Of a DNA stretch of 64,000 nucleotides, positions 6,751 through 35,503 are shown piece after piece. Position numbers and translations under genes: made by a program. This DNA comes from Escherichia phage StefiGeyer_Bas88, in sequence record PQ850628.1; one strand, written 5' to 3'. The stretch's first letter is position 1; every line of letters starts with the position of its first letter. Below the pieces are notes generated by a model. That model searched no databases. It was not told the DNA's origin and saw only the letters and a program-made list of their open reading frames with translations.

Positions 6751-7782
6751 ATGGCATATGGAATATGGTGTCAACCTGTAGGACCGGGGCCAGCCTCTCC
6801 GGCTCCTTTGTTTATCGACAGTGGGAGTACATTCCCTCAGATTAAGAACTCTATTAGTGGGAGTTTCAACTTTAATGGGGGTGGGAGATCTTTCCCTATT
6901 AATGGTTGGGATGGTAGCGGTCAGATAATTATCGTCCCTACTGGATCTCTGTGCTGGCAGTGGGAAGTTCCTCCTAACTTGGTTCCTGATGTTTATTGTG
7001 TTAATAACATTTATGTAGAGAATAACTCCTCTTTCAGAGTTAACTTAAACCAGAATCCCGGAAGTAACCCCCTGTTTGATTGTGGGTTTAACGTTTACCA
7101 AATCTACCCAAGAGCTGACAGAAATTACGGTATTACCTTCTCTAATACAGCTGATTACTTCTCTATCTCTGATGCTGGTGTTGTTGGTCAGTGTATTTGG
7201 GCTTGGCAAGGGACTATAAACGGCGCTTTACAGATTCCTGACATTGGTGGGTTTTATATGCCTAATGCTGTAGTCTTTGCTAACTGGTCTGACGGAGGGA
7301 TTGGCCTTTCTTATACATCTGGAGATAGAGTAATCCGTGTATATCAGAACAGATCTTATAATAACGGAAACTCTAACGAAGGCGGTTCTGTATTTGCTAG
7401 GGTCGCAGTATTCTGTAATGGAGCAGGAGTTCCTGAGCACAATGGTGGATTAAATATTTATTCTCCCGGAACAACTCAGTGTGTGTTCTCTACTAATAGA
7501 ACACCTTTTACTGTTGATAATTTTGTAGGTTCTGCTGGAGGTGATACTGGTATGGCATACCCAATGATACCCCTCTCCTCTGGTGTAGGTGCTATTCGGG
7601 GTAGTGGTAGTGGTTGGTACTATCAGCAAATGAGATCTCATGTAATGACAGGATCTTCTATAGGGACTGGCTATGGTAGGTACATGTTCCAGTGGTCTAC
7701 CAATTATGACCTAGGTTCTAACTCTGCCATTAACATATCAATTCCGGTAATAAATGCGGCTAAAGTTTTTGCGGGTCTATAA
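6751..7782 (+). CDS. tail fibre/receptor-binding candidate
   Basis: Gly/Asn/Ser-rich 343-aa protein within the tail gene block; no enzymatic motif recognised. Confidence 0.3.
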   Translation: MAYGIWCQPVGPGPASPAPLFIDSGSTFPQIKNSISGSFNFNGGGRSFPINGWDGSGQIIIVPTGSLCWQWEVPPNLVPDVYCVNNIYVENNSSFRVNLNQNPGSNPLFDCGFNVYQIYPRADRNYGITFSNTADYFSISDAGVVGQCIWAWQGTINGALQIPDIGGFYMPNAVVFANWSDGGIGLSYTSGDRVIRVYQNRSYNNGNSNEGGSVFARVAVFCNGAGVPEHNGGLNIYSPGTTQCVFSTNRTPFTVDNFVGSAGGDTGMAYPMIPLSSGVGAIRGSGSGWYYQQMRSHVMTGSSIGTGYGRYMFQWSTNYDLGSNSAINISIPVINAAKVFAGL

Positions 7783-7795
7783 TAAGGAGGATTTT

Positions 7796-8590
7796 ATGAC
7801 AATTCGCATGGGAGTGTCTGAGCTTGACCCTATGGTCCAGCAAGCTTCTAAGAAGTACGGCATTCCTGCTGCTCTTATCCATGCAGTCATTCAGAGGGAG
7901 TCTAGTGGTAGACCTTCTGTTGCATCAGGTACAGGGCCAGTAGGTTTAATGCAAATCAGTAAAGGGTTGGCTAAAGACTATGGATACAAACTAGAAGATC
8001 GTTTAGACCCAGCCAAAAATATTGACATGGGTGCTAGATATATTCGTGATAATTTGAAAGCTTTTAATGGTGATGTGAAGAAAGCTATGGTGGGTTATTC
8101 TGAAGGGACTGGTGGAGCAAAACAAATGTTCGCTGGTAAGAAGGGGTTTACACCTCAAGCCTTGGATTCTATGAACAACAAAAACTTCCTCCCTTTCTAT
8201 ACAGCCAATGATGCTGCTGGTCAGGTGGCTAATCCGGTTGGGGCTTTACAATCAGCACAGCCAGTGAACCAATTCTCTCCTGAGTTGGTTACTAAAGAAG
8301 GTGCTGCTAATGCTCCTACTCAAGCTGAGATTGCTGCTGCTAAGACAGGAGCTCTAGGCGGTTCTCCTGCTGAGTTCTATTCTGACGATGCAGAAGAGGC
8401 TGGGGAAGATCAGAAACCACAACAGAACTTCGGTAATGCTGCACTAGCTGCTGCTGCGATGTTAGCAGGAAAGGCTCCTAAGTCTCAAACAGTTCAGAGA
8501 GCACATGCACCAACTCAAGCAGGTTCTCAATACAGCCCACAGACACAAGCCGTTCTTAGACGTTTGGCAAGTGTTGGTGTTATTAAATAA
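7796..8590 (+). CDS. virion-associated lytic transglycosylase (SLT domain) with Ala/Gln-rich C-terminus
   Basis: AVIQRESSGRPSVASGTGPVGLMQIS matches the SLT catalytic Glu and GLMQ motif; ATG at 7796 after AAGGAGG. Confidence 0.7.
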   Translation: MTIRMGVSELDPMVQQASKKYGIPAALIHAVIQRESSGRPSVASGTGPVGLMQISKGLAKDYGYKLEDRLDPAKNIDMGARYIRDNLKAFNGDVKKAMVGYSEGTGGAKQMFAGKKGFTPQALDSMNNKNFLPFYTANDAAGQVANPVGALQSAQPVNQFSPELVTKEGAANAPTQAEIAAAKTGALGGSPAEFYSDDAEEAGEDQKPQQNFGNAALAAAAMLAGKAPKSQTVQRAHAPTQAGSQYSPQTQAVLRRLASVGVIK

Positions 8591-30004: not shown

Positions 30005-30235
30005 TTAGATAACCTTGTGCTTATAGATGTTAGGGTTGTAGTAATGCAACCAGTTTATGTATTGTTTCTGTTCGAGGTAGTGCCTGCAATCATGACAAAA
30101 AGCATGACCCAAACCTGTTTCCTCATTCAGTTTGAAATTGATAAGAAGCTTCTGCTTTCGACAGAAGCTACATGCTTTAGTGGGCTTCACGTAATGCATC
30201 CCAAGAGATTGGATATATTTTACGAAGCTCTTCAT
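30005..30235 (-). CDS. small zinc-ribbon protein (start uncertain)
   Basis: CSFCRK ... CHDCRH Cys pairs; overlaps the 3' end of the ThyX-like gene. Confidence 0.3.
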   Translation of the reverse strand: MKSFVKYIQSLGMHYVKPTKACSFCRKQKLLINFKLNEETGLGHAFCHDCRHYLEQKQYINWLHYYNPNIYKHKVI

Positions 30236-30827
30236 CAATTGTTGATGCGAACACTCGTACTTCGTACTGAGCATGGTCTGACAGTCGCTGACGACACAAC
30301 TCTGACCAACCATATAGAGAACCAGTCCATACCCACTCAGTGATCATACCCTGAGGTAATACGAATCGAGCTTGTTCTGGAGCAATGAACTTAATCAATT
30401 CATCGTACGACTCAAGAGCTGTTTCATATGCTCGGTTAATCAGAACTAGTGCAGAGTTTTGTGCTCCTGTGGTGAGGAGATTCCCTGCACCTGCATGGAG
30501 GTCCGAAGGTCTTTCAAAAATCTCTTTAGGGATGAAGAGTTCAACTGCTCCATCTTTATACCGCCGGGACATTTCGTTCCACGAGAATCCAACTTGATGC
30601 TTGCCCAACTGTCTCGCAATTGCGATTGGCGCTTTGCATCGGAAGCTAATTGTCGGATGACGGAATGGTGTGACATGCTTTTCTCTGGCAAGGAACTTGA
30701 TAAGGCGTTCATCTCGTTCATTTAACTCTCCTTCACGAGTAACCCCAAAGGAAACTCGAGCTGCATTAACAACAGATTTATCAGAACCCATTGCTTCGAT
30801 TAGTGTTGCTTGTAATTGTTCATTCAT
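30177..30827 (-). CDS. thyX: flavin-dependent thymidylate synthase (ThyX)-like, non-canonical RHR motif
   Basis: AARVSF...HVTPF.H...F.CKAPIAIARQ ... SRRY ... SDHAQYE align to ThyX; the RHRx7S motif reads KHQVGFSWNEMS here. Confidence 0.65.
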   Translation of the reverse strand: MNEQLQATLIEAMGSDKSVVNAARVSFGVTREGELNERDERLIKFLAREKHVTPFRHPTISFRCKAPIAIARQLGKHQVGFSWNEMSRRYKDGAVELFIPKEIFERPSDLHAGAGNLLTTGAQNSALVLINRAYETALESYDELIKFIAPEQARFVLPQGMITEWVWTGSLYGWSELCRQRLSDHAQYEVRVFASTIDEELRKIYPISWDALREAH

Positions 30828-30841
30828 CCTTGAACTCTTCC

Positions 30842-31057
30842 TTAATAATGAATCTTTTTATAAATCATGTTGCTTCCACTTTCTGTTTCAATCCCTTTCT
30901 GAATTGTAATCTTAGAAGCGCCAGTGTTAGCAATTTTTAAAGCTCGCTTAAAGCGGCGAGCCTCTCTCCGTGTTGTATATGAGGAGAAACTAGGGATTGT
31001 GCTATCAAAATTAAACCACTTAACTGCCCAAAAAGTAATCCAAGGTTTCTTTTCCAT
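30842..31057 (-). CDS. small basic protein, W..W/TRxEAR/K(V/I)HY family (copy 3)
   Basis: WAVKW ... TRREARRFK ... KIHY, shared with 32922..33128 and 33128..33340. Confidence 0.4.
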   Translation of the reverse strand: MEKKPWITFWAVKWFNFDSTIPSFSSYTTRREARRFKRALKIANTGASKITIQKGIETESGSNMIYKKIHY

Positions 31058-31058
31058 A

Positions 31059-31334
31059 TTAAATACCTTTCAGAGCCGTGTCTAAAAATGCACGGAGATT
31101 AGATTCAGTTTGCATACCTGATAAGCTGTAATGAGCACCACTGTTCTTATCAGGGATGACAAAGGCTGGGATACTGCGAACACCATATTCAATGGCTCGC
31201 TCTCGACCATCACCTTCAGAGATATTTACTTCTTCAACTTCTACACTGTAGTCAGCCACAACCTTCTTAAACACAGGAGCCATAGCTGCACACGGAGCAC
31301 ATGAATTACTATAAAACTTAATTACTTTACTCAT
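31059..31334 (-). CDS. thioredoxin-like protein
   Basis: MSKVIKFYSNSCAPCAAMAPVF with CxxC active site and the cis-Pro region VRSIPAF; ATG at 31334. Confidence 0.6.
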   Translation of the reverse strand: MSKVIKFYSNSCAPCAAMAPVFKKVVADYSVEVEEVNISEGDGRERAIEYGVRSIPAFVIPDKNSGAHYSLSGMQTESNLRAFLDTALKGI

Positions 31335-31524
31335 TCTATTCCTTGTTAATAAACAGGTTGATATGACGCTGGGTAGCAGGAACAACAATAAAAGATTTAT
31401 ACTGACCTTTTGCTAAGTCATGAGCAATCTTCTTTGTCTGACCAAGACCCATCACACAGCCACTAACGATAATGGCATGTGCTTGTAATTCTTCAGGTAG
31501 GTTTAGTTTCACTCTTTAGATTCC

Positions 31525-31710
31525 TTATAGCATACAAAGAATAATAACAAGAGGTAGTGTTATAGCAAAATGTACCAGAACAACACTACCTAGCTTGATA
31601 GCTTTAACATCCTCTTCTGCTGGGTTTTCTTTAATTGCTAAATTTCGAGCTTTATATATAACAGTACCAACTATTAACGACCACACGGCCCACACAATCA
31701 GTGAAATCAT
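31525..31710 (-). CDS. small two-helix membrane protein (paralog 2)
   Basis: Two hydrophobic segments; similar to the adjacent gene (IVWAVWSLIVGTVIY vs IVWSVWAILVGGIVY). Confidence 0.4.
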   Translation of the reverse strand: MISLIVWAVWSLIVGTVIYKARNLAIKENPAEEDVKAIKLGSVVLVHFAITLPLVIILCML

Positions 31711-31719
31711 ATCAAACCC

Positions 31720-31941
31720 TTATGCAGTCAACAGGTGGAGAAGGAAAGGAATGACAACAGAGAAAATTACCAGAGCAATGCTGCCATGTTTAATGGGTTT
31801 AGCATCATTCGGATTTTCTTTAAGCATCTGTTTCTGAGCCAGATAAACGATACCACCAACAAGAATTGCCCACACAGACCATACGATTGCTGAAAACATA
31901 TTCACATCCTTATAAAGAAGTTCGCCCCACCTCTTAAACAA
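31720..31941 (-). CDS. small two-helix membrane protein (paralog 1)
   Basis: Tandem paralog of 31525..31710. Confidence 0.4.
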   Translation of the reverse strand: MFKRWGELLYKDVNMFSAIVWSVWAILVGGIVYLAQKQMLKENPNDAKPIKHGSIALVIFSVVIPFLLHLLTA

Positions 31942-31962
31942 AGAGACAGGGCGGAGGTTTGA

Positions 31963-32529
31963 TTAGTAAGACACGTCACCACTAGAGTGGGACATGTTGC
32001 TCTTGACGAAGTAACAGAACTTGCCAAGACCTTCATTAATTTCTTGAAGCATACTCTGGTCTACTGGATAGGTGCACAAGTCTGAATCAAACTCGTCCAT
32101 CTTTTCAATGATACACATCAGAGTCATGCACATGTCGGAAAGCATACCGTCCATGTCGAGATCAGCACTACCTTCTCTGAACCAAGCACAACTAAGATAG
32201 CTACTAGCTGTTGCATCCACTTTGATACAGTGATAACGCATTCGCTCAGCTACTCGGTCTCCTGTTTCACGAGCATAGTCTTCTAATTCATCGAACATAC
32301 CATGAACACCTTGGAAACCAGCTCCAGAGACGTTCCAGTGGTAATTCTTTGCTTTGATGTGTAGAAGCTCAAGGTTAGCCTGCACACCGCATAGGATGTG
32401 CTCTAGACTGTTACCGCTGATCAGTTTATTCATTCCCTCAAGACGAGAGATAGAGGAGTCAGTTGTAGAGAATGGGTTACTAGAACCCACTCGTGTTAGT
32501 TCAGGTAAGTCGAAGACATTATTATGCAT
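31963..32529 (-). CDS. Dps-like ferritin-fold protein
   Basis: LELLHIKAKNYHWNVSGAGFQGVHGMFDELEDYARETGDRVAERM aligns to the Dps ferroxidase region, with the His, His, Asp and Glu ligand positions present. Confidence 0.55.
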   Translation of the reverse strand: MHNNVFDLPELTRVGSSNPFSTTDSSISRLEGMNKLISGNSLEHILCGVQANLELLHIKAKNYHWNVSGAGFQGVHGMFDELEDYARETGDRVAERMRYHCIKVDATASSYLSCAWFREGSADLDMDGMLSDMCMTLMCIIEKMDEFDSDLCTYPVDQSMLQEINEGLGKFCYFVKSNMSHSSGDVSY

Positions 32530-32869
32530 TAGGAGTCTCTCCTTCTAAGTTAGTTGAATTAGCCACATTACGAGCAATGTTATCCATGACCTGCTGTGTA
32601 ATAACAATGCAATTCTGAGGGTCTACTGATTTAGAACGCCCCATTTCAGGGTCATAGACTTTGACTCGCTTGGCTGTTGAGCCAGTAACTTGCAACACTT
32701 TGAGAAGATAACCTTGATTTCCAATAGACCATGCAACAACATCACGATTCTTGATATAACGACCAAGCATATCACGATGATAGAACTGCTGCATAACTTT
32801 AGCTTTGCTAATCTCTTCAGATGGCGGGGCCACTTTACTCAAATCTAACATAACTCTCTCCTGTTTCAT
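32522..32869 (-). CDS. hypothetical protein
   Basis: 115-aa ORF; promoter-like motif immediately upstream. Confidence 0.35.
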   Translation of the reverse strand: MKQERVMLDLSKVAPPSEEISKAKVMQQFYHRDMLGRYIKNRDVVAWSIGNQGYLLKVLQVTGSTAKRVKVYDPEMGRSKSVDPQNCIVITQQVMDNIARNVANSTNLEGETPNA

Positions 32870-32886
32870 ACAATATTCTTATACTG

Positions 32887-32896
32887 TATATACATT
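32887..32896 (-). promoter_or_regulatory. phage promoter-like motif AATGTATATA
   Basis: Intergenic, - strand, 17 nt upstream of the 32869 ATG. Confidence 0.25.
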
Positions 32897-32921
32897 TGAG
32901 AGTTATCATATCTACTACCAA

Positions 32922-33128
32922 CTAGTAATGAACCTTGCTAGTCAAGGATCCTGCACTGTTATTGTCACTTTGAAACCAACGATGAATCTCTACTTTTTCA
33001 GCGAGACCTAAAGCTTTTGTAGCTTTCTTAGCAAGACGAGCTTCTTGTCGAGTGTCGAATAATTTAAGACAATCACCACCAAGGTCTTTGTTAGCCCATT
33101 TAACGCGAACTGCCCATAATTTAGTCAT
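32922..33128 (-). CDS. small basic protein, W..W/TRxEAR/KVHY family (copy 2)
   Basis: WAVRVKW ... TRQEARLAKK ... KVHY. Confidence 0.4.
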   Translation of the reverse strand: MTKLWAVRVKWANKDLGGDCLKLFDTRQEARLAKKATKALGLAEKVEIHRWFQSDNNSAGSLTSKVHY

Positions 33129-33340
33129 TAGTAATGTACCTTTCCACTGATATAGAAACGACCTGATTTAAAGTCTTGAGCTTTGTGAATAGTGACCTTA
33201 TCAATTGTACTTTCACAGCTTAATAAGAATTTCTTATGAGCGCGAGCCTCTTGACGAGTATTCCTGATGCCCATTGATTCCGTACCACTACTCCAGCGGA
33301 TACGAACGACCCAACGTCTTTTCATTGTTCCAAACTCCAT
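33128..33340 (-). CDS. small basic protein, W..W/TRxEAR/KVHY family (copy 1)
   Basis: WVVRIRW ... TRQEARAHKK ... KVHY. Confidence 0.4.
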   Translation of the reverse strand: MEFGTMKRRWVVRIRWSSGTESMGIRNTRQEARAHKKFLLSCESTIDKVTIHKAQDFKSGRFYISGKVHY

Positions 33341-33540
33341 TATCTGTCAACCGATTCAGGGACAAACTGCATTACACATACCTGATTACGAGGGAGATTT
33401 ATTTCACAAGCAGCTTTTCTATCAGCAACCTTTGCTGATGAGTTAGGGCCTATTTGAGCCATCATTATTCCCATAGCAAACATGCCGATGATTATGCCAA
33501 TTGATAGAGATGCTACGGTTTCTTGTTTCATCTTAATCAC
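33340..33540 (-). CDS. small membrane protein
   Basis: Hydrophobic helix SLSIGIIIGMFAMGIMMA. Confidence 0.3.
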   Translation of the reverse strand: MIKMKQETVASLSIGIIIGMFAMGIMMAQIGPNSSAKVADRKAACEINLPRNQVCVMQFVPESVDR

Positions 33541-34070
33541 ACCCCTTTAGATGCAACTACACTATTGCTACCATTGTAGCGACCCTTCACTGCATATGAA
33601 TCGTCGCCAGCGTGAGAGTGTTCAAACATAACCATCTGACCAACACGCATTCCAGCACGAACTCGTAAGCTGTGATTGTGGGTAACATTATGGAACTCAA
33701 AGGTCAGCTTACTGTTGTTAAACCCTGCATCAGCCCAACCAGCATGGAGATGGTTTAAACCACAACGAGCCATTGAGGAGCGGAGTACAAACAGACTTGA
33801 AATATTATCTGGAAGGTTAAACTCTTCCATTGAGTGAGCTAAGAAGAACTGTCCCGGAGTGATAACGATACCATCTTCAGGGATTTTTACTTCTTTCCAC
33901 TTGAGGTTTTCTTTAGCATCAATGTCAACAATACCATCAGCCTGCTCTTCAACAAGGATAGTATCACCAATACGGATATCCACACTAGCAGCGTTAACAT
34001 ACTTATGCTCCGCATCTAAAAAGCCATTATCAATAACGCTGTGTAATTCTTGAGAACCTAAAAGACTCAT
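33537..34070 (-). CDS. dcd: dCTP deaminase (dUTPase fold)
   Basis: FVLRSSMARCGLNHLHAGWADAGFNNSKLTFEF matches the dCTP deaminase/dUTPase family core. Confidence 0.7.
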   Translation of the reverse strand: MSLLGSQELHSVIDNGFLDAEHKYVNAASVDIRIGDTILVEEQADGIVDIDAKENLKWKEVKIPEDGIVITPGQFFLAHSMEEFNLPDNISSLFVLRSSMARCGLNHLHAGWADAGFNNSKLTFEFHNVTHNHSLRVRAGMRVGQMVMFEHSHAGDDSYAVKGRYNGSNSVVASKGV

Positions 34071-35503
34071 GAGTTTCTGTTTCCTTGTACAGATGATGCC
34101 AAATTGTTAATCATATTACGAGCTGTTTCACGAGTTAGTGTAACACCTGCTAAGTTGTTATGAAGTTCACCAGAGAGTTCACGAGCAGTAGCCCGAAGCT
34201 CTTCACCAAGTGAAGTGTTAGAGTGAGCCAAACCATTACGACGACCAACAGGTCGAGGAGTTTCGTTAGCGTCATTAGCTAAAGATGCAAAACCAATACG
34301 AGCAGCTTCACGAGCGGCTATAGCTGCTACCCGATCTTCCGTAGGGGTTGGCAAATCACCAACCCCTACACGTTCAATATCACTAGCACGTAGACCCTGA
34401 GTAACAGATCTTACTGTTTCCCATGAACGACGAGAGCGCTGCAAATCATCCATTGATGGAGAAGAAACAGGACGAGCAGTTCCTCCTGAGACATGCCATG
34501 TATGGTTATGCATTCCAGAAGATCGTGCACTACCAAAACTACCGGTGAAAGTATCACGAGGTGCCATTGTACTAGGGGCTGCGAATCTTGCCTGTTGCCA
34601 AGAGTCACGTCTGTCAGTTCCCGGAGTCCAAGGCTGCGTAATTGCTTCAACACCAATAGTGGTTAACTCACTAGACCAATCTGTCTGTAGGTTAACTTCT
34701 TCATCCAGATAGATACGACCCGCTTCCTGAGGAATATTTAATACAGTTTCCATCATCTTCAAGGTGTAGTGGCGACGTTGATTCTGATACAAGTTTACAC
34801 CAGCCATAGGCCCAACTAAATCACTGATCAGATGAACTTCTGGTTCACCAAAAGCTCCCATTGCAAGGTGCATATACTCAGTAGAACTGCTGTAAACTGC
34901 AACTGTTGCTTCAGGCCACTTTTTGTGGACATACTTCATGTCACGACTTGTCACCACAGGGATATCATTAGTATATGCCATTGCAAACATACCTTCGTTC
35001 GACACATACATATCATCGAGAGTCATAAACCCTTGACAGATCATAGGGAAGCGACCGCTCAGAGTATCCATATCCAGAGGAAGGTTAATCATCATCTGAA
35101 TCTTCACTTCATCAATCTCAATTTCCAGAATCTCTTGGAAAGTGAAAAGTGCGTCAGCATAAGTTGTCCCACTAACAGGCTGGACTAAACGAGATGTAAC
35201 TTGAAGTCCCTTACTCTCTGTCCAAGACAAGAAGTTGTCAAGGAACAGTGCAGCATTACCCACGTTAGCAGGGCTGTTTTCCTGACGAGTGTTCCAACGA
35301 AACCCTCCTTGAACTAGGAAGATATCAACATCATTCGGAGTTCGGTTCTGGAAGAACGTATCACGGATAGCACCACCTGCAATAACAGGATAAATACCAT
35401 CAGGGACTACGTTATCTCTGATCAAATTACGAATCAGGTCAAGCCCTACGCTGAGGGCTTCTCCTTCTTGAAGGTTCAATTCAGACAATGGAATCTTAAT
35501 CAT
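34067..35503 (-). CDS. nucleotidyltransferase with CCA-adding/poly(A) polymerase-type head domain and divergent C-terminal region
   Basis: VIAGGAIRDTFFQNRTPNDVDIFL matches the GGxxRD...DxD head-domain signature of class-II tRNA nucleotidyltransferases; C-terminal ~200 aa is low complexity. Confidence 0.45.
   Translation of the reverse strand: MIKIPLSELNLQEGEALSVGLDLIRNLIRDNVVPDGIYPVIAGGAIRDTFFQNRTPNDVDIFLVQGGFRWNTRQENSPANVGNAALFLDNFLSWTESKGLQVTSRLVQPVSGTTYADALFTFQEILEIEIDEVKIQMMINLPLDMDTLSGRFPMICQGFMTLDDMYVSNEGMFAMAYTNDIPVVTSRDMKYVHKKWPEATVAVYSSSTEYMHLAMGAFGEPEVHLISDLVGPMAGVNLYQNQRRHYTLKMMETVLNIPQEAGRIYLDEEVNLQTDWSSELTTIGVEAITQPWTPGTDRRDSWQQARFAAPSTMAPRDTFTGSFGSARSSGMHNHTWHVSGGTARPVSSPSMDDLQRSRRSWETVRSVTQGLRASDIERVGVGDLPTPTEDRVAAIAAREAARIGFASLANDANETPRPVGRRNGLAHSNTSLGEELRATARELSGELHNNLAGVTLTRETARNMINNLASSVQGNRNS

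What the first reader, a model, noticed from the sequence alone, without database searches (positions are those of the whole stretch)
31963..32529. Dps-like ferritin encoded by a phage
The YHWNVSGAGFQGVHGMFDE...DRVAERM region matches the Dps ferroxidase site with its His, His, Asp and Glu ligands. Dps is a host DNA-protection and iron-sequestration protein and is unusual in a lytic phage. It could protect replicating DNA from oxidative damage, manipulate iron for nucleotide metabolism (it sits near thioredoxin and ThyX-like genes), or be packaged.
Basis: partly seen in the sequence, partly recalled or inferred. Interest (0 to 1): 0.6.

Follow-up and report, generated by a model that had tools for sequence, protein, structure and literature searches.

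The report
Known Dps mini-ferritin of phiEco32-like phages
The gene really encodes a Dps-type iron-detoxifying mini-ferritin, but it has been annotated since 2008 as a conserved core gene of the phiEco32-like prolate E. coli phages, and its role in infection has never been tested.

Summary
Window 31963..32529 (- strand) is a 188-aa ORF with a strong ribosome-binding site, under strong purifying selection (dN/dS about 0.05). It belongs to the Dps branch of the ferritin superfamily. All five intersubunit ferroxidase ligands and the adjacent Trp align with those of E. coli Dps and are invariant in 21 homologues. The AlphaFold model is a Dps four-helix bundle with the short BC helix, 1.2-1.5 A rmsd to solved Dps structures.

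The claim that this is unusual is overstated. The window comes from a Gordonclarkvirinae (phiEco32/SU7-like) coliphage. The orthologue phiEco32 gp67 is annotated in its GenBank record (EU330206) as a 'member of the Dps family'. SU10 CDS67 was reported as one of eight middle genes shared by all five sequenced C3 phages and was detected by mass spectrometry. PHROG 3636 covers the family.

The gene always sits in a conserved dNTP-synthesis block: dCTP deaminase, a 109-aa unknown ORF, Dps, thioredoxin, ThyX, and NrdD in relatives.

The likeliest role is removal of Fe2+ and H2O2 during phage DNA replication. DNA binding is doubtful, because the N-terminal extension is acidic. Packaging into virions is only weakly supported.

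Novelty: already known. Interest: low to moderate.

The parts
31963..32529 (-). Dps-family mini-ferritin gene (188 aa, 21.1 kDa, pI 4.7). Orthologue of phiEco32 gp67 and SU10 CDS67.
   Evidence: ORF. Pfam, PHROG and PDB matches. AF2 model with pLDDT above 90 for aa 46-180. Foldseek target-normalised TM 0.8-0.9 to Dps structures. dN/dS about 0.05. 100% aa identity to phages TH34 and TH42.
32245..32340 (-). Codons for residues 64-95, holding the intersubunit ferroxidase centre: H64, W65, H76 and D80 on one subunit, D91 and E95 on the two-fold partner.
   Evidence: Aligned column by column with E. coli Dps H51/W52/H63/D67/D78/E82. Invariant in 21 homologues.
32395..32529 (-). N-terminal extension, residues 1-45. 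It carries the motifs MHNNVFDLP and SxxRL[DE]xM, is net acidic, and is confined to the Kuravirus-like lineage and its metagenomic relatives (in shortened form in the more distant ones); it is absent from the Proteus, Salmonella and Aeromonas phage homologues.
   Evidence: Alignments. Charge count of 3 K+R against 5 D+E. Low AF2 confidence (pLDDT 39-57). No non-synonymous changes against SU7 or Bas87.
32522..32851 (-). Conserved upstream ORF of 109 aa (start at the second ATG, which has the RBS AGGAG), phrog_10984, function unknown. Its stop overlaps the Dps start by 8 nt.
   Evidence: Homologues abut Dps in Proteus phage P59, Aeromonas phage LAh_6 and the metagenomic contigs. It has the same host distribution as Dps across the Gram-negative-host phages in the collection. 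It corresponds to SU10 CDS68.
32887..32897 (-). AAATGTATATA, a 10-of-11 match to the phiEco32/SU10 phage-sigma promoter motif tAATGTATAtA, about 36 nt upstream of the 109-aa ORF start.
   Evidence: The motif and a promoter upstream of CDS68 are described in PMC4281155. The 9-mer with one mismatch is not enriched window-wide (19 found, 18.9 expected), so the assignment rests on position and literature.
31923..31953 (-). 13-bp hairpin starting 10 nt after the Dps stop codon. It could be a weak terminator, an attenuator or an mRNA-stabilising element.
   Evidence: terminator-like. (dG -20.3 kcal/mol, z -2.9). The stem is conserved in SU7, Bas87 and phiEco32, with a different loop in phiEco32. The T-run is weak, and one such site is expected by chance in the scanned region.
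31059..31334 (-). Thioredoxin gene in the same gene block.
   Evidence: PF00085 at E 1e-12 and phrog_22.
30177..30827 (-). Flavin-dependent thymidylate synthase ThyX in the same gene block.
   Evidence: PF02511 at E 5e-43 and phrog_85.
33537..34070 (-). dCTP deaminase gene upstream in the same block.
   Evidence: Annotated as such in the syntenic records. PF22769 DCD is found at the same position in metagenomic relatives.

Best explanation
The gene encodes a genuine Dps-type mini-ferritin.

Shown here:
- Dps fold.
- An intact intersubunit ferroxidase centre.
- Strong purifying selection.
- Position as the second gene behind the first middle promoter, inside the dNTP-synthesis and replication block.

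Protein expression during infection is shown only for the SU10 orthologue, from the literature.

Inferred from what is established for the Dps family:
- The protein assembles through two-fold dimers into a hollow dodecamer.
- At each of the 12 sites, built from H64/H76/D80 of one subunit and D91/E95 of its partner, two Fe2+ are oxidised, preferentially by H2O2.
- The Fe3+ is stored as a mineral core. Both Fenton reactants are thereby removed, and hydroxyl-radical damage to replicating phage DNA and to the dNTP-synthesis enzymes is limited.

A further inference concerns why the phage carries its own copy. phiEco32-type phages inhibit host sigma-70 transcription, so the host cannot mount its own stress-induced dps response.

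This protein probably acts chemically rather than by coating DNA. It lacks the Lys-rich tail that E. coli Dps needs for DNA binding.
For: Family membership and catalytic residues.

Fold: the model has helices 42-66, 72-99, 108-113 (the Dps-specific BC helix), 126-146 and 155-178 with pLDDT above 90. Foldseek gives rmsd 1.2-1.5 A over about 140 residues to M. smegmatis Dps2, B. anthracis Dlp-2 and S. aureus Dps.

Both halves of an intersubunit site are conserved, which implies at least the two-fold dimer.

Selection: dN/dS is 0.05 against SU7 and Bas87, and 0.05 against phiEco32 although dS is saturated there.

Expression: SU10 CDS67 was seen with 6 peptides and 35.8% coverage in a PEG-concentrated lysate. 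CDS68 and CDS67 head the middle region behind a promoter, and the matching motif is present in the window.

Context: the order dCTP deaminase, 109-aa ORF, Dps, thioredoxin, ThyX is kept in phiEco32, SU7, Bas87 and 81-101 kb metagenomic relatives that also carry anaerobic RNR NrdD. Dps abuts ThyX in Salmonella phage SE131. It lies beside NrdD/NrdG-type genes in Aeromonas LAh_6 and Proteus P59. An unrelated Streptomyces phage also has Dps 2 kb from a ThyX.

Literature: host dps, catalase and peroxiredoxin are strongly induced during lytic infection by YerA41, which points to oxidative stress in infected cells (PMC7354516). The same antioxidant rationale was proposed for Dps in gut phages (PMC8008677). 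Sigma-70 inhibition by a phiEco32 protein is described in PMC4281155.
Against: There is no biochemical or genetic test of any phage Dps in the searched literature.

Dodecamer assembly, iron binding and ferroxidase activity could not be tested here.

The protein scores far below the NCBIfam equivalog cut-off for enterobacterial Dps (34.8 against 114 bits). It shares only about 19% identity with E. coli Dps, so its properties may differ.

This phage encodes no obviously iron- or oxygen-sensitive enzyme of its own, because NrdD is absent from the window.

The conserved N-terminal extension and the conserved co-transcribed 109-aa ORF are not explained by a simple antioxidant role.

Clustering with nucleotide-metabolism genes may only reflect shared timing of expression.
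Confidence: 0.6

Rival explanations
1. DNA-coating role. The protein binds and condenses DNA as E. coli Dps does, either phage DNA or the host nucleoid. This would physically shield it from nucleases or restriction enzymes, or would reorganise the nucleoid.
For: The family precedent and the database label 'DNA binding protein' point this way.

The shorter N-termini of the Proteus, Salmonella and Aeromonas phage homologues are basic, with 4-5 K+R in the first 30 residues.

Gordonclarkvirinae are reported to be remarkably resistant to restriction-modification systems without a known mechanism (PMC11990801).
Against: In this protein the 45-residue N-terminal extension is net acidic (3 K+R against 5 D+E). 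The C-terminal tail SHSSGDVSY has no basic residue, and the whole protein has pI 4.7. From established knowledge of the family, Dps proteins without a mobile basic tail, such as those of Listeria and Agrobacterium, do not bind DNA.

The 'DNA binding' label is transferred annotation, not a test.

A middle-gene product would arrive too late to protect incoming DNA from restriction. The BASEL authors attribute the resistance to a suspected DNA modification made by the adjacent dCTP deaminase and nucleotidyltransferase.
Confidence: 0.15
2. Virion-associated cargo. The Dps cage, or its subunits, is incorporated into or tightly bound to the prolate capsid. There it would protect the packaged genome or be delivered to the next host.
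For: The Dps homologue of Proteus phage Privateer was among the virion-associated proteins detected by LC-MS/MS of CsCl-purified particles (PMC7881722).

The gene is conserved in every C3 prolate podophage lineage examined.

BFVD lists uncultured-phage proteins named 'Prohead protease' that contain a Dps-like domain.
Against: The SU10 detection came from a PEG precipitate not purified on CsCl. That sample also contained DNA polymerase, thioredoxin, PhoH and the sigma factor.

The SU10 cryo-EM study lists gp20-24 as the internal ejection proteins. Neither its text nor its supplements mention Dps.

The gene is a middle gene in the replication block, not in the late structural module.

A 9-nm dodecamer could not pass through the tail channel. 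An iron-loaded cage could simply co-band with phage in CsCl; this is an inference.

The 'prohead protease' label could not be verified. A 334-aa representative with a C-terminal Dps domain has an N-terminal region matching only an unknown-function PHROG and no protease Pfam family.
Confidence: 0.1
3. Iron-management role. The cage acts mainly as an iron store or sink that redirects host iron. It could supply iron to iron-dependent dNTP synthesis (host class I RNR, or NrdG in relatives). Alternatively it could lower free Fe2+ and so change Fur-controlled host functions.
For: The ferroxidase site is intact. The gene lies close to thioredoxin and, in relatives, to anaerobic RNR genes. Siderophore genes are induced during another lytic infection (PMC7354516).
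Against: Chemically this mechanism overlaps the best explanation and differs only in which consequence is selected for.

This phage has no RNR or other evident iron enzyme of its own.

A Dps core holds at most about 500 Fe atoms. From general knowledge of the family, Dps is regarded as a detoxifier rather than a supply store.
Confidence: 0.1

Closest known systems
phiEco32 gp67 (ABY52868, 'DNA-binding protein, member of the Dps family'), SU10 CDS67, and the identical proteins of Escherichia phages TH34 and TH42
   Same: These are orthologues. TH34 and TH42 are 100% identical at the amino-acid level, SU7 and HC-25922 about 96%, and phiEco32 and SU10 81-82%. Length, N-terminal extension, neighbours and the overlapping upstream ORF are the same.
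   Different: Nothing of substance differs. Many GenBank records mislabel the same gene as 'integrase'.
Bacterial Dps mini-ferritins: M. smegmatis Dps2 (2z90), B. anthracis Dlp-2 (1jig), S. aureus Dps (2d5k), E. coli Dps (1f30/1dps)
   Same: They share the four-helix bundle with a BC helix, the five ferroxidase ligands with identical spacing, and the conserved Trp.
   Different: Identity is only 19-26%, below the NCBIfam Dps equivalog cut-offs. The phage protein has a 45-residue acidic N-terminal extension in place of the Lys-rich DNA-binding tail. It has seven non-conserved Cys where E. coli Dps has none. It is expressed from a phage middle promoter rather than under OxyR or sigma-S control.
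Dps genes of other phage lineages: Privateervirus, Moazamivirus, Lahexavirus, Gratiaviridae and other gut phages, Lactobacillus Herelleviridae, Streptomyces Stanwilliamsviridae, Bacillus phage G, and cyanophage S-SRM01
   Same: All are phage-borne Dps domains in non-structural, often nucleotide-metabolism regions. An antioxidant role has been proposed in the literature (PMC8008677).
   Different: The C3-podophage homologues are 30-42% identical and lack the long N-terminal extension. The others are more distant, at 29% identity or less, and are probably independent acquisitions.

Membership tests
Dps (DNA-binding protein from starved cells; 12-mer mini-ferritin) | Sequence-profile membership in the ferritin-like domain family, with Dps proteins as the nearest relatives | tested here: met
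   PF00210 scores 31.4 bits against a cut-off of 24.5. The family profile against PDB gives E 7e-19 over the full domain, and all 53 hits are Dps-family proteins, with no 24-mer ferritin or bacterioferritin among them.
Dps (DNA-binding protein from starved cells; 12-mer mini-ferritin) | Four-helix bundle with a short extra helix in the long BC loop | tested here: met
   The AF2 model has helices 42-66, 72-99, 108-113, 126-146 and 155-178 with pLDDT above 90. Foldseek gives target-normalised TM 0.8-0.9 and rmsd 1.2-1.5 A to solved Dps structures.
Dps (DNA-binding protein from starved cells; 12-mer mini-ferritin) | Intersubunit ferroxidase centre: His, His (and Asp) from one subunit, Asp and Glu from the two-fold partner, with an adjacent Trp | tested here: met
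   H64, W65, H76, D80, D91 and E95 align with E. coli H51, W52, H63, D67, D78 and E82. They are invariant in 21 homologues.
Dps (DNA-binding protein from starved cells; 12-mer mini-ferritin) | Assembly into a hollow dodecamer with 23 symmetry | not testable with these tools
   Only single-chain prediction was available. Conservation of both halves of an intersubunit site argues indirectly for the two-fold dimer.
Dps (DNA-binding protein from starved cells; 12-mer mini-ferritin) | Fe2+ oxidation by H2O2 or O2 and an iron mineral core | not testable with these tools
   This needs biochemistry. No such study of a phage Dps was found.
Dps (DNA-binding protein from starved cells; 12-mer mini-ferritin) | Mobile Lys/Arg-rich N- or C-terminal tail for non-specific DNA binding. 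This feature is present in only some members and does not define the family. | tested here: not met
   Residues 1-45 hold 3 K+R against 5 D+E. The C-terminal tail has no basic residue, and the protein has pI 4.7.
Enterobacterial Dps equivalog (NCBIfam NF006975) | Score above the curated equivalog cut-off | tested here: not met
   The score is 34.8 bits against a cut-off of 114. The protein is therefore a divergent Dps-family member, not a copy of the host dps.
PHROG 3636 (phage 'DNA binding protein', i.e. phage Dps) | Full-length profile match | tested here: met
   E 5e-53, covering aa 37-181 on profile positions 3-149 of 149.

The most novel reading that the evidence does not exclude
The most novel reading not excluded is that the Dps cage does more than soluble antioxidant chemistry in this lineage. 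The Kuravirus-type N-terminal extension (MHNNVFDLP...SxxRLExM) and the co-transcribed 109-aa partner, which is conserved across the whole clade, would tether the cage. The target could be the replisome or phage DNA, or the prolate capsid, which would fit the detection in CsCl-purified Privateer virions. In that case the C3 podophages would carry a dedicated, targeted iron/peroxide-scavenging nanocompartment. This would resemble the way encapsulin shells package ferritin-like cargo.
Probability: 0.1. Interest if true: 0.6.

Novelty: already known. Interest (0 to 1): 0.25.

Why it matters
The find itself matters little, because the gene and its Dps assignment have been in GenBank and the literature since the phiEco32 (2008) and SU10 (2014) papers.

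What remains open is function. Dps is one of only eight middle genes reported as shared by all five sequenced C3 prolate podophages. It is under strong purifying selection, and it recurs independently in gut, Lactobacillus, Streptomyces and cyanobacterial phages. Even so, no phage Dps appears to have been purified or deleted.

Members of this group now infect E. coli K-12 (BASEL Bas86-93), so a deletion or active-site mutant is practical. Such an experiment would show whether controlling iron and peroxide chemistry is a general requirement of lytic replication.

Tried and rejected
1. The 109-aa upstream partner ORF could not be characterised. AF2 gave mean pLDDT 43, so I ran no fold search on it. 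Pfam and NCBIfam gave no hits. A profile against PDB gave only a marginal hit, E 0.037, to a beta-propeller region of PH0594, which I regard as chance.

2. The lead that Dps is fused to a prohead protease came from BFVD names. The long Dps-containing representatives I could retrieve (P0122, P0108, P0080 and others) show only the ferritin domain. The extra regions are either unknown (phrog_16075) or a weak STAS match, with no protease family. The lead is not supported, and the exact BFVD entries could not be fetched.

3. SU10 mass spectrometry does not count as evidence for packaging. The sample was PEG precipitate only, and the SU10 cryo-EM paper and its supplements do not list the protein.

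4. Conserved cysteines as a redox or Fe-S feature linked to thioredoxin were rejected. None of the seven Cys is invariant.

5. A recent capture of the host dps was rejected. Identity to E. coli Dps is about 19%, and the NCBIfam equivalog score is far below cut-off.

6. The phiEco32 paper (PMC2587145) is not held in the library.

7. A literature search for H2O2 production by ThyX found nothing usable. That link rests on my own knowledge only, and I give it little weight.

8. The sigma-70 consensus scan found no promoter on the - strand upstream of the operon. Only the phage-sigma-type motif is present.

Full report
**What is at the coordinates.** Window 31963..32529 on the - strand is a single 188-aa ORF with an ATG start. 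AAGGAG sits 9 nt upstream of that ATG. The start overlaps the stop of the preceding ORF by 8 nt. The product is 21.1 kDa with pI 4.7.

**Is it a Dps?** Yes, on every test.
- Pfam PF00210 (Ferritin-like) passes its gathering cut-off, at 31.4 against 24.5 bits. That match covers only aa 56-99.
- PHROG 3636 matches full-length at E 5e-53.
- phmmer against all PDB sequences returns Dps proteins as the top 56 hits, with M. smegmatis Dps2 best at E 1e-9; chance-level chloride-channel hits appear only at E > 0.4.
- A profile built from 21 homologues matches B. anthracis Dlp-2 at E 7e-19 across the whole domain. All 53 hits are Dps-family proteins, with no 24-mer ferritin among them.
- An alignment with E. 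coli Dps places H64, W65, H76, D80, D91 and E95 on H51, W52, H63, D67, D78 and E82. I first checked that my E. coli sequence is identical to PDB 1f30. These are the ligands of the intersubunit ferroxidase centre and the adjacent Trp, as established for the family.
- All six residues are invariant in homologues down to 40% identity. They are also kept in the Proteus, Salmonella and Aeromonas phage proteins.
- The AlphaFold2 model has pLDDT above 90 from residue 46 to 180. It shows the Dps-specific architecture: helices A, B, the short BC helix 108-113, C and D.
- Foldseek superposes the model on solved Dps structures at 1.2-1.5 A rmsd over about 140 residues, with target-normalised TM 0.8-0.9.
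- Codon comparison with SU7, Bas87 and phiEco32 gives dN/dS of about 0.05. The gene is therefore real and constrained.

**Where the window comes from, and what was already known.** The region is 94% identical in DNA to Escherichia phages ECBP2 and SU7. The protein is 100% identical to that of phages TH34 and TH42. These are Gordonclarkvirinae, the phiEco32-like podophages with prolate C3 heads.
- The phiEco32 GenBank record (EU330206) annotates the orthologue gp67 as 'DNA-binding protein, member of the Dps family'.
- The SU10 paper names CDS67 ('contains a DPS domain') as one of only eight middle genes shared by all five C3 phages sequenced at that time. It detected the protein by mass spectrometry with 6 peptides and 35.8% coverage (PMC4281155).
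- The Privateer paper notes a Dps family protein in purified virions and its presence in Kuravirus phages (PMC7881722).

The finding is therefore correct but not new. Many database records mislabel the gene as 'integrase'.

**How unusual is a phage Dps?** It is rare overall but recurrent.
- This subfamily is found in 135 of 50,697 phage records. Nearly all are C3 podophages of Escherichia, Shigella, Salmonella, Proteus, Cronobacter and Aeromonas.
- A search with E. coli Dps finds a further set, mostly about 95 Streptomyces and 16 Lactobacillus phages.
- BFVD adds Bacillus phage G, a crAss-like phage and many uncultured phages.
- Benler et al. reported Dps in the proposed 'Gratiaviridae' and in 36 other gut phage genomes (PMC8008677).
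- In the 1.84-billion-protein representative library, only 14 clusters match at E of 1e-10 or better and 531 at E of 1e-3 or better. The C3-phage proteins thus form a well-separated Dps branch.
- They are not a recent copy of the host gene. Identity to E. coli Dps is about 19%, and the NCBIfam equivalog score is 34.8 against a cut-off of 114.

**Context.** All neighbours lie on the - strand:
- dCTP deaminase, 33537..34070
- three small ORFs
- a 109-aa ORF, 32522..32851
- Dps
- two small membrane-protein paralogues and one further small ORF (31336..31512, phrog_19504)
- thioredoxin, 31059..31334
- one further small ORF (30842..31057)
- ThyX, 30177..30827

The helicase-primase, polymerase exonuclease subunit and a nucleotidyltransferase lie upstream. 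PhoH and DNA polymerase lie downstream.

The order dCTP deaminase, 109-aa ORF, Dps, (thioredoxin), ThyX is kept in phiEco32, SU7 and Bas87. It is also kept in 81-101 kb metagenomic relatives whose Dps is only about 50-57% identical and which add an anaerobic ribonucleotide reductase, NrdD. In Salmonella phage SE131 the Dps gene abuts ThyX. In Aeromonas LAh_6 and Proteus P59 it lies among anaerobic RNR-type genes. In an unrelated Streptomyces phage, Dps is again 2 kb from a ThyX. In a Lactobacillus phage it is not.

**Transcription.** The SU10 paper places a promoter upstream of CDS68, the first middle gene. It also describes the phage-sigma motif tAATGTATAtA. The window has AAATGTATATA at 32887..32897, about 36 nt upstream of the 109-aa ORF. 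A 13-bp hairpin follows the Dps stop (dG -20.3 kcal/mol, z -2.9). Its stem is conserved in SU7, Bas87 and phiEco32. The hairpin's function is not established.

**The conserved partner.** The 109-aa ORF (phrog_10984, SU10 CDS68) has homologues directly upstream of Dps in the Proteus and Aeromonas phages, at 36-38% identity. In Salmonella 7-11-type phages its homologue sits next to thioredoxin. Its host distribution in the phage collection matches that of Dps across the Gram-negative-host phages. Since both are core genes of the clade, co-occurrence alone does not prove a functional link. Its structure could not be predicted (pLDDT 43). It has no Pfam, NCBIfam or credible PDB relative.

**Likely mechanism.**
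- Shown: the Dps fold, the intact intersubunit ferroxidase site, purifying selection, and position early in the middle operon within the dNTP and replication block. Protein expression during infection is shown for the SU10 orthologue, from the literature.
- Inferred from established Dps biochemistry: dodecamer assembly, oxidation of Fe2+ preferentially by H2O2, and storage of Fe3+ in the cavity. This removes both Fenton reactants while phage DNA is being replicated.
- Supporting rationale from the literature: host dps, catalase and peroxiredoxin are among the most strongly induced host genes during a lytic infection by YerA41 (PMC7354516). phiEco32-type phages inhibit sigma-70 transcription, so a phage copy would replace a response the host can no longer mount. 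The presence of oxygen-sensitive NrdD in relatives and the gut habitat fit the argument made for gut phages.
- I put about 0.6 on this reading.

**Rivals.**
- DNA coating is the function implied by the database label. It fits this protein poorly, because the 45-residue N-terminal extension is net acidic and neither tail is basic. The shorter tails of the Proteus, Salmonella and Aeromonas homologues are basic, so the property may differ within the clade.
- Packaging into virions has one positive observation: Privateer, CsCl-purified, whole-particle LC-MS/MS. The SU10 detection came from a PEG precipitate that also contained polymerase, sigma factor and PhoH. The SU10 cryo-EM study does not list the protein. 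The gene is a middle gene, not a late one.
- BFVD names suggesting Dps fused to prohead proteases could not be substantiated on the long representatives I could retrieve.
- An iron-supply or iron-sink role overlaps chemically with the main model and cannot be separated from it here.

**Verdict.** The feature is an already annotated core gene of a known phage group, so novelty is 'already known' and interest is low to moderate. The open points are experimental. No phage Dps seems to have been characterised. The lineage-specific N-terminal extension and the conserved co-transcribed partner remain unexplained.

Noticed in passing
window 32522..32851 (-): A 109-aa ORF (phrog_10984, SU10 CDS68) overlaps the Dps start by 8 nt. 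It is conserved across all C3 podophage lineages and usually lies directly upstream of Dps. It has no recognisable domain, and AF2 could not fold it (pLDDT 43).
   Followed up: partly
window 30842..31057, 32922..33128 and 33128..33340 (all -): Three paralogous small ORFs of 68-71 aa belong to phrog_4939, of unknown function. Each carries a basic 'RQEAR..KK'-type motif and ends in K[VI]HY. They are scattered on both sides of the Dps gene.
   Followed up: no
window 31525..31710 and 31720..31899 (both -): Two tandem paralogous small membrane proteins (phrog_9296, about 60 aa) lie directly downstream of Dps. phiEco32 has only one copy at this position.
   Followed up: no
window 31923..31953 (-): A 13-bp GC-rich hairpin starts 10 nt after the Dps stop codon (dG -20.3 kcal/mol, z -2.9). 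Its stem is conserved in SU7, Bas87 and phiEco32, while the loop differs in phiEco32. The U-tract is weak, so it may be an attenuator or a stabiliser rather than a full terminator.
   Followed up: partly
window 33537..35503 (-): dCTP deaminase is followed by a 478-aa nucleotidyltransferase (phrog_12715). The BASEL paper (PMC11990801) speculates that this pair makes a DNA modification explaining the strong restriction resistance of Gordonclarkvirinae. That idea remains untested.
   Followed up: no
GenBank records of relatives (e.g. IME267, MLP3, ES17, vB_EcoP-101114UKE3), at the position equivalent to window 31963..32529: The Dps orthologue is annotated as 'integrase' in many deposited genomes. 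This is an annotation error that has propagated through this strictly lytic phage group.
   Followed up: yes
BFVD entries A0A6J7XDU5, A0A6J7WPK9 and A0A6J7WIS1; representative P0122 (334 aa): Some uncultured-phage proteins of 290-760 aa carry a C-terminal Dps domain, and some are named 'Prohead protease'. The one representative I could inspect has an N-terminal region that matches only phrog_16075 (unknown function). The protease label is therefore unverified.
   Followed up: partly
L013 (Streptomyces phage Watermoore) 4956..5357 and 7372..8115; L003 (Salmonella phage SE131) 3294..4399: Dps lies next to or within about 2 kb of a ThyX gene in evolutionarily separate phage lineages. It is directly abutting in SE131. 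No survey was done to test whether this exceeds ordinary clustering of nucleotide-metabolism genes.
   Followed up: partly
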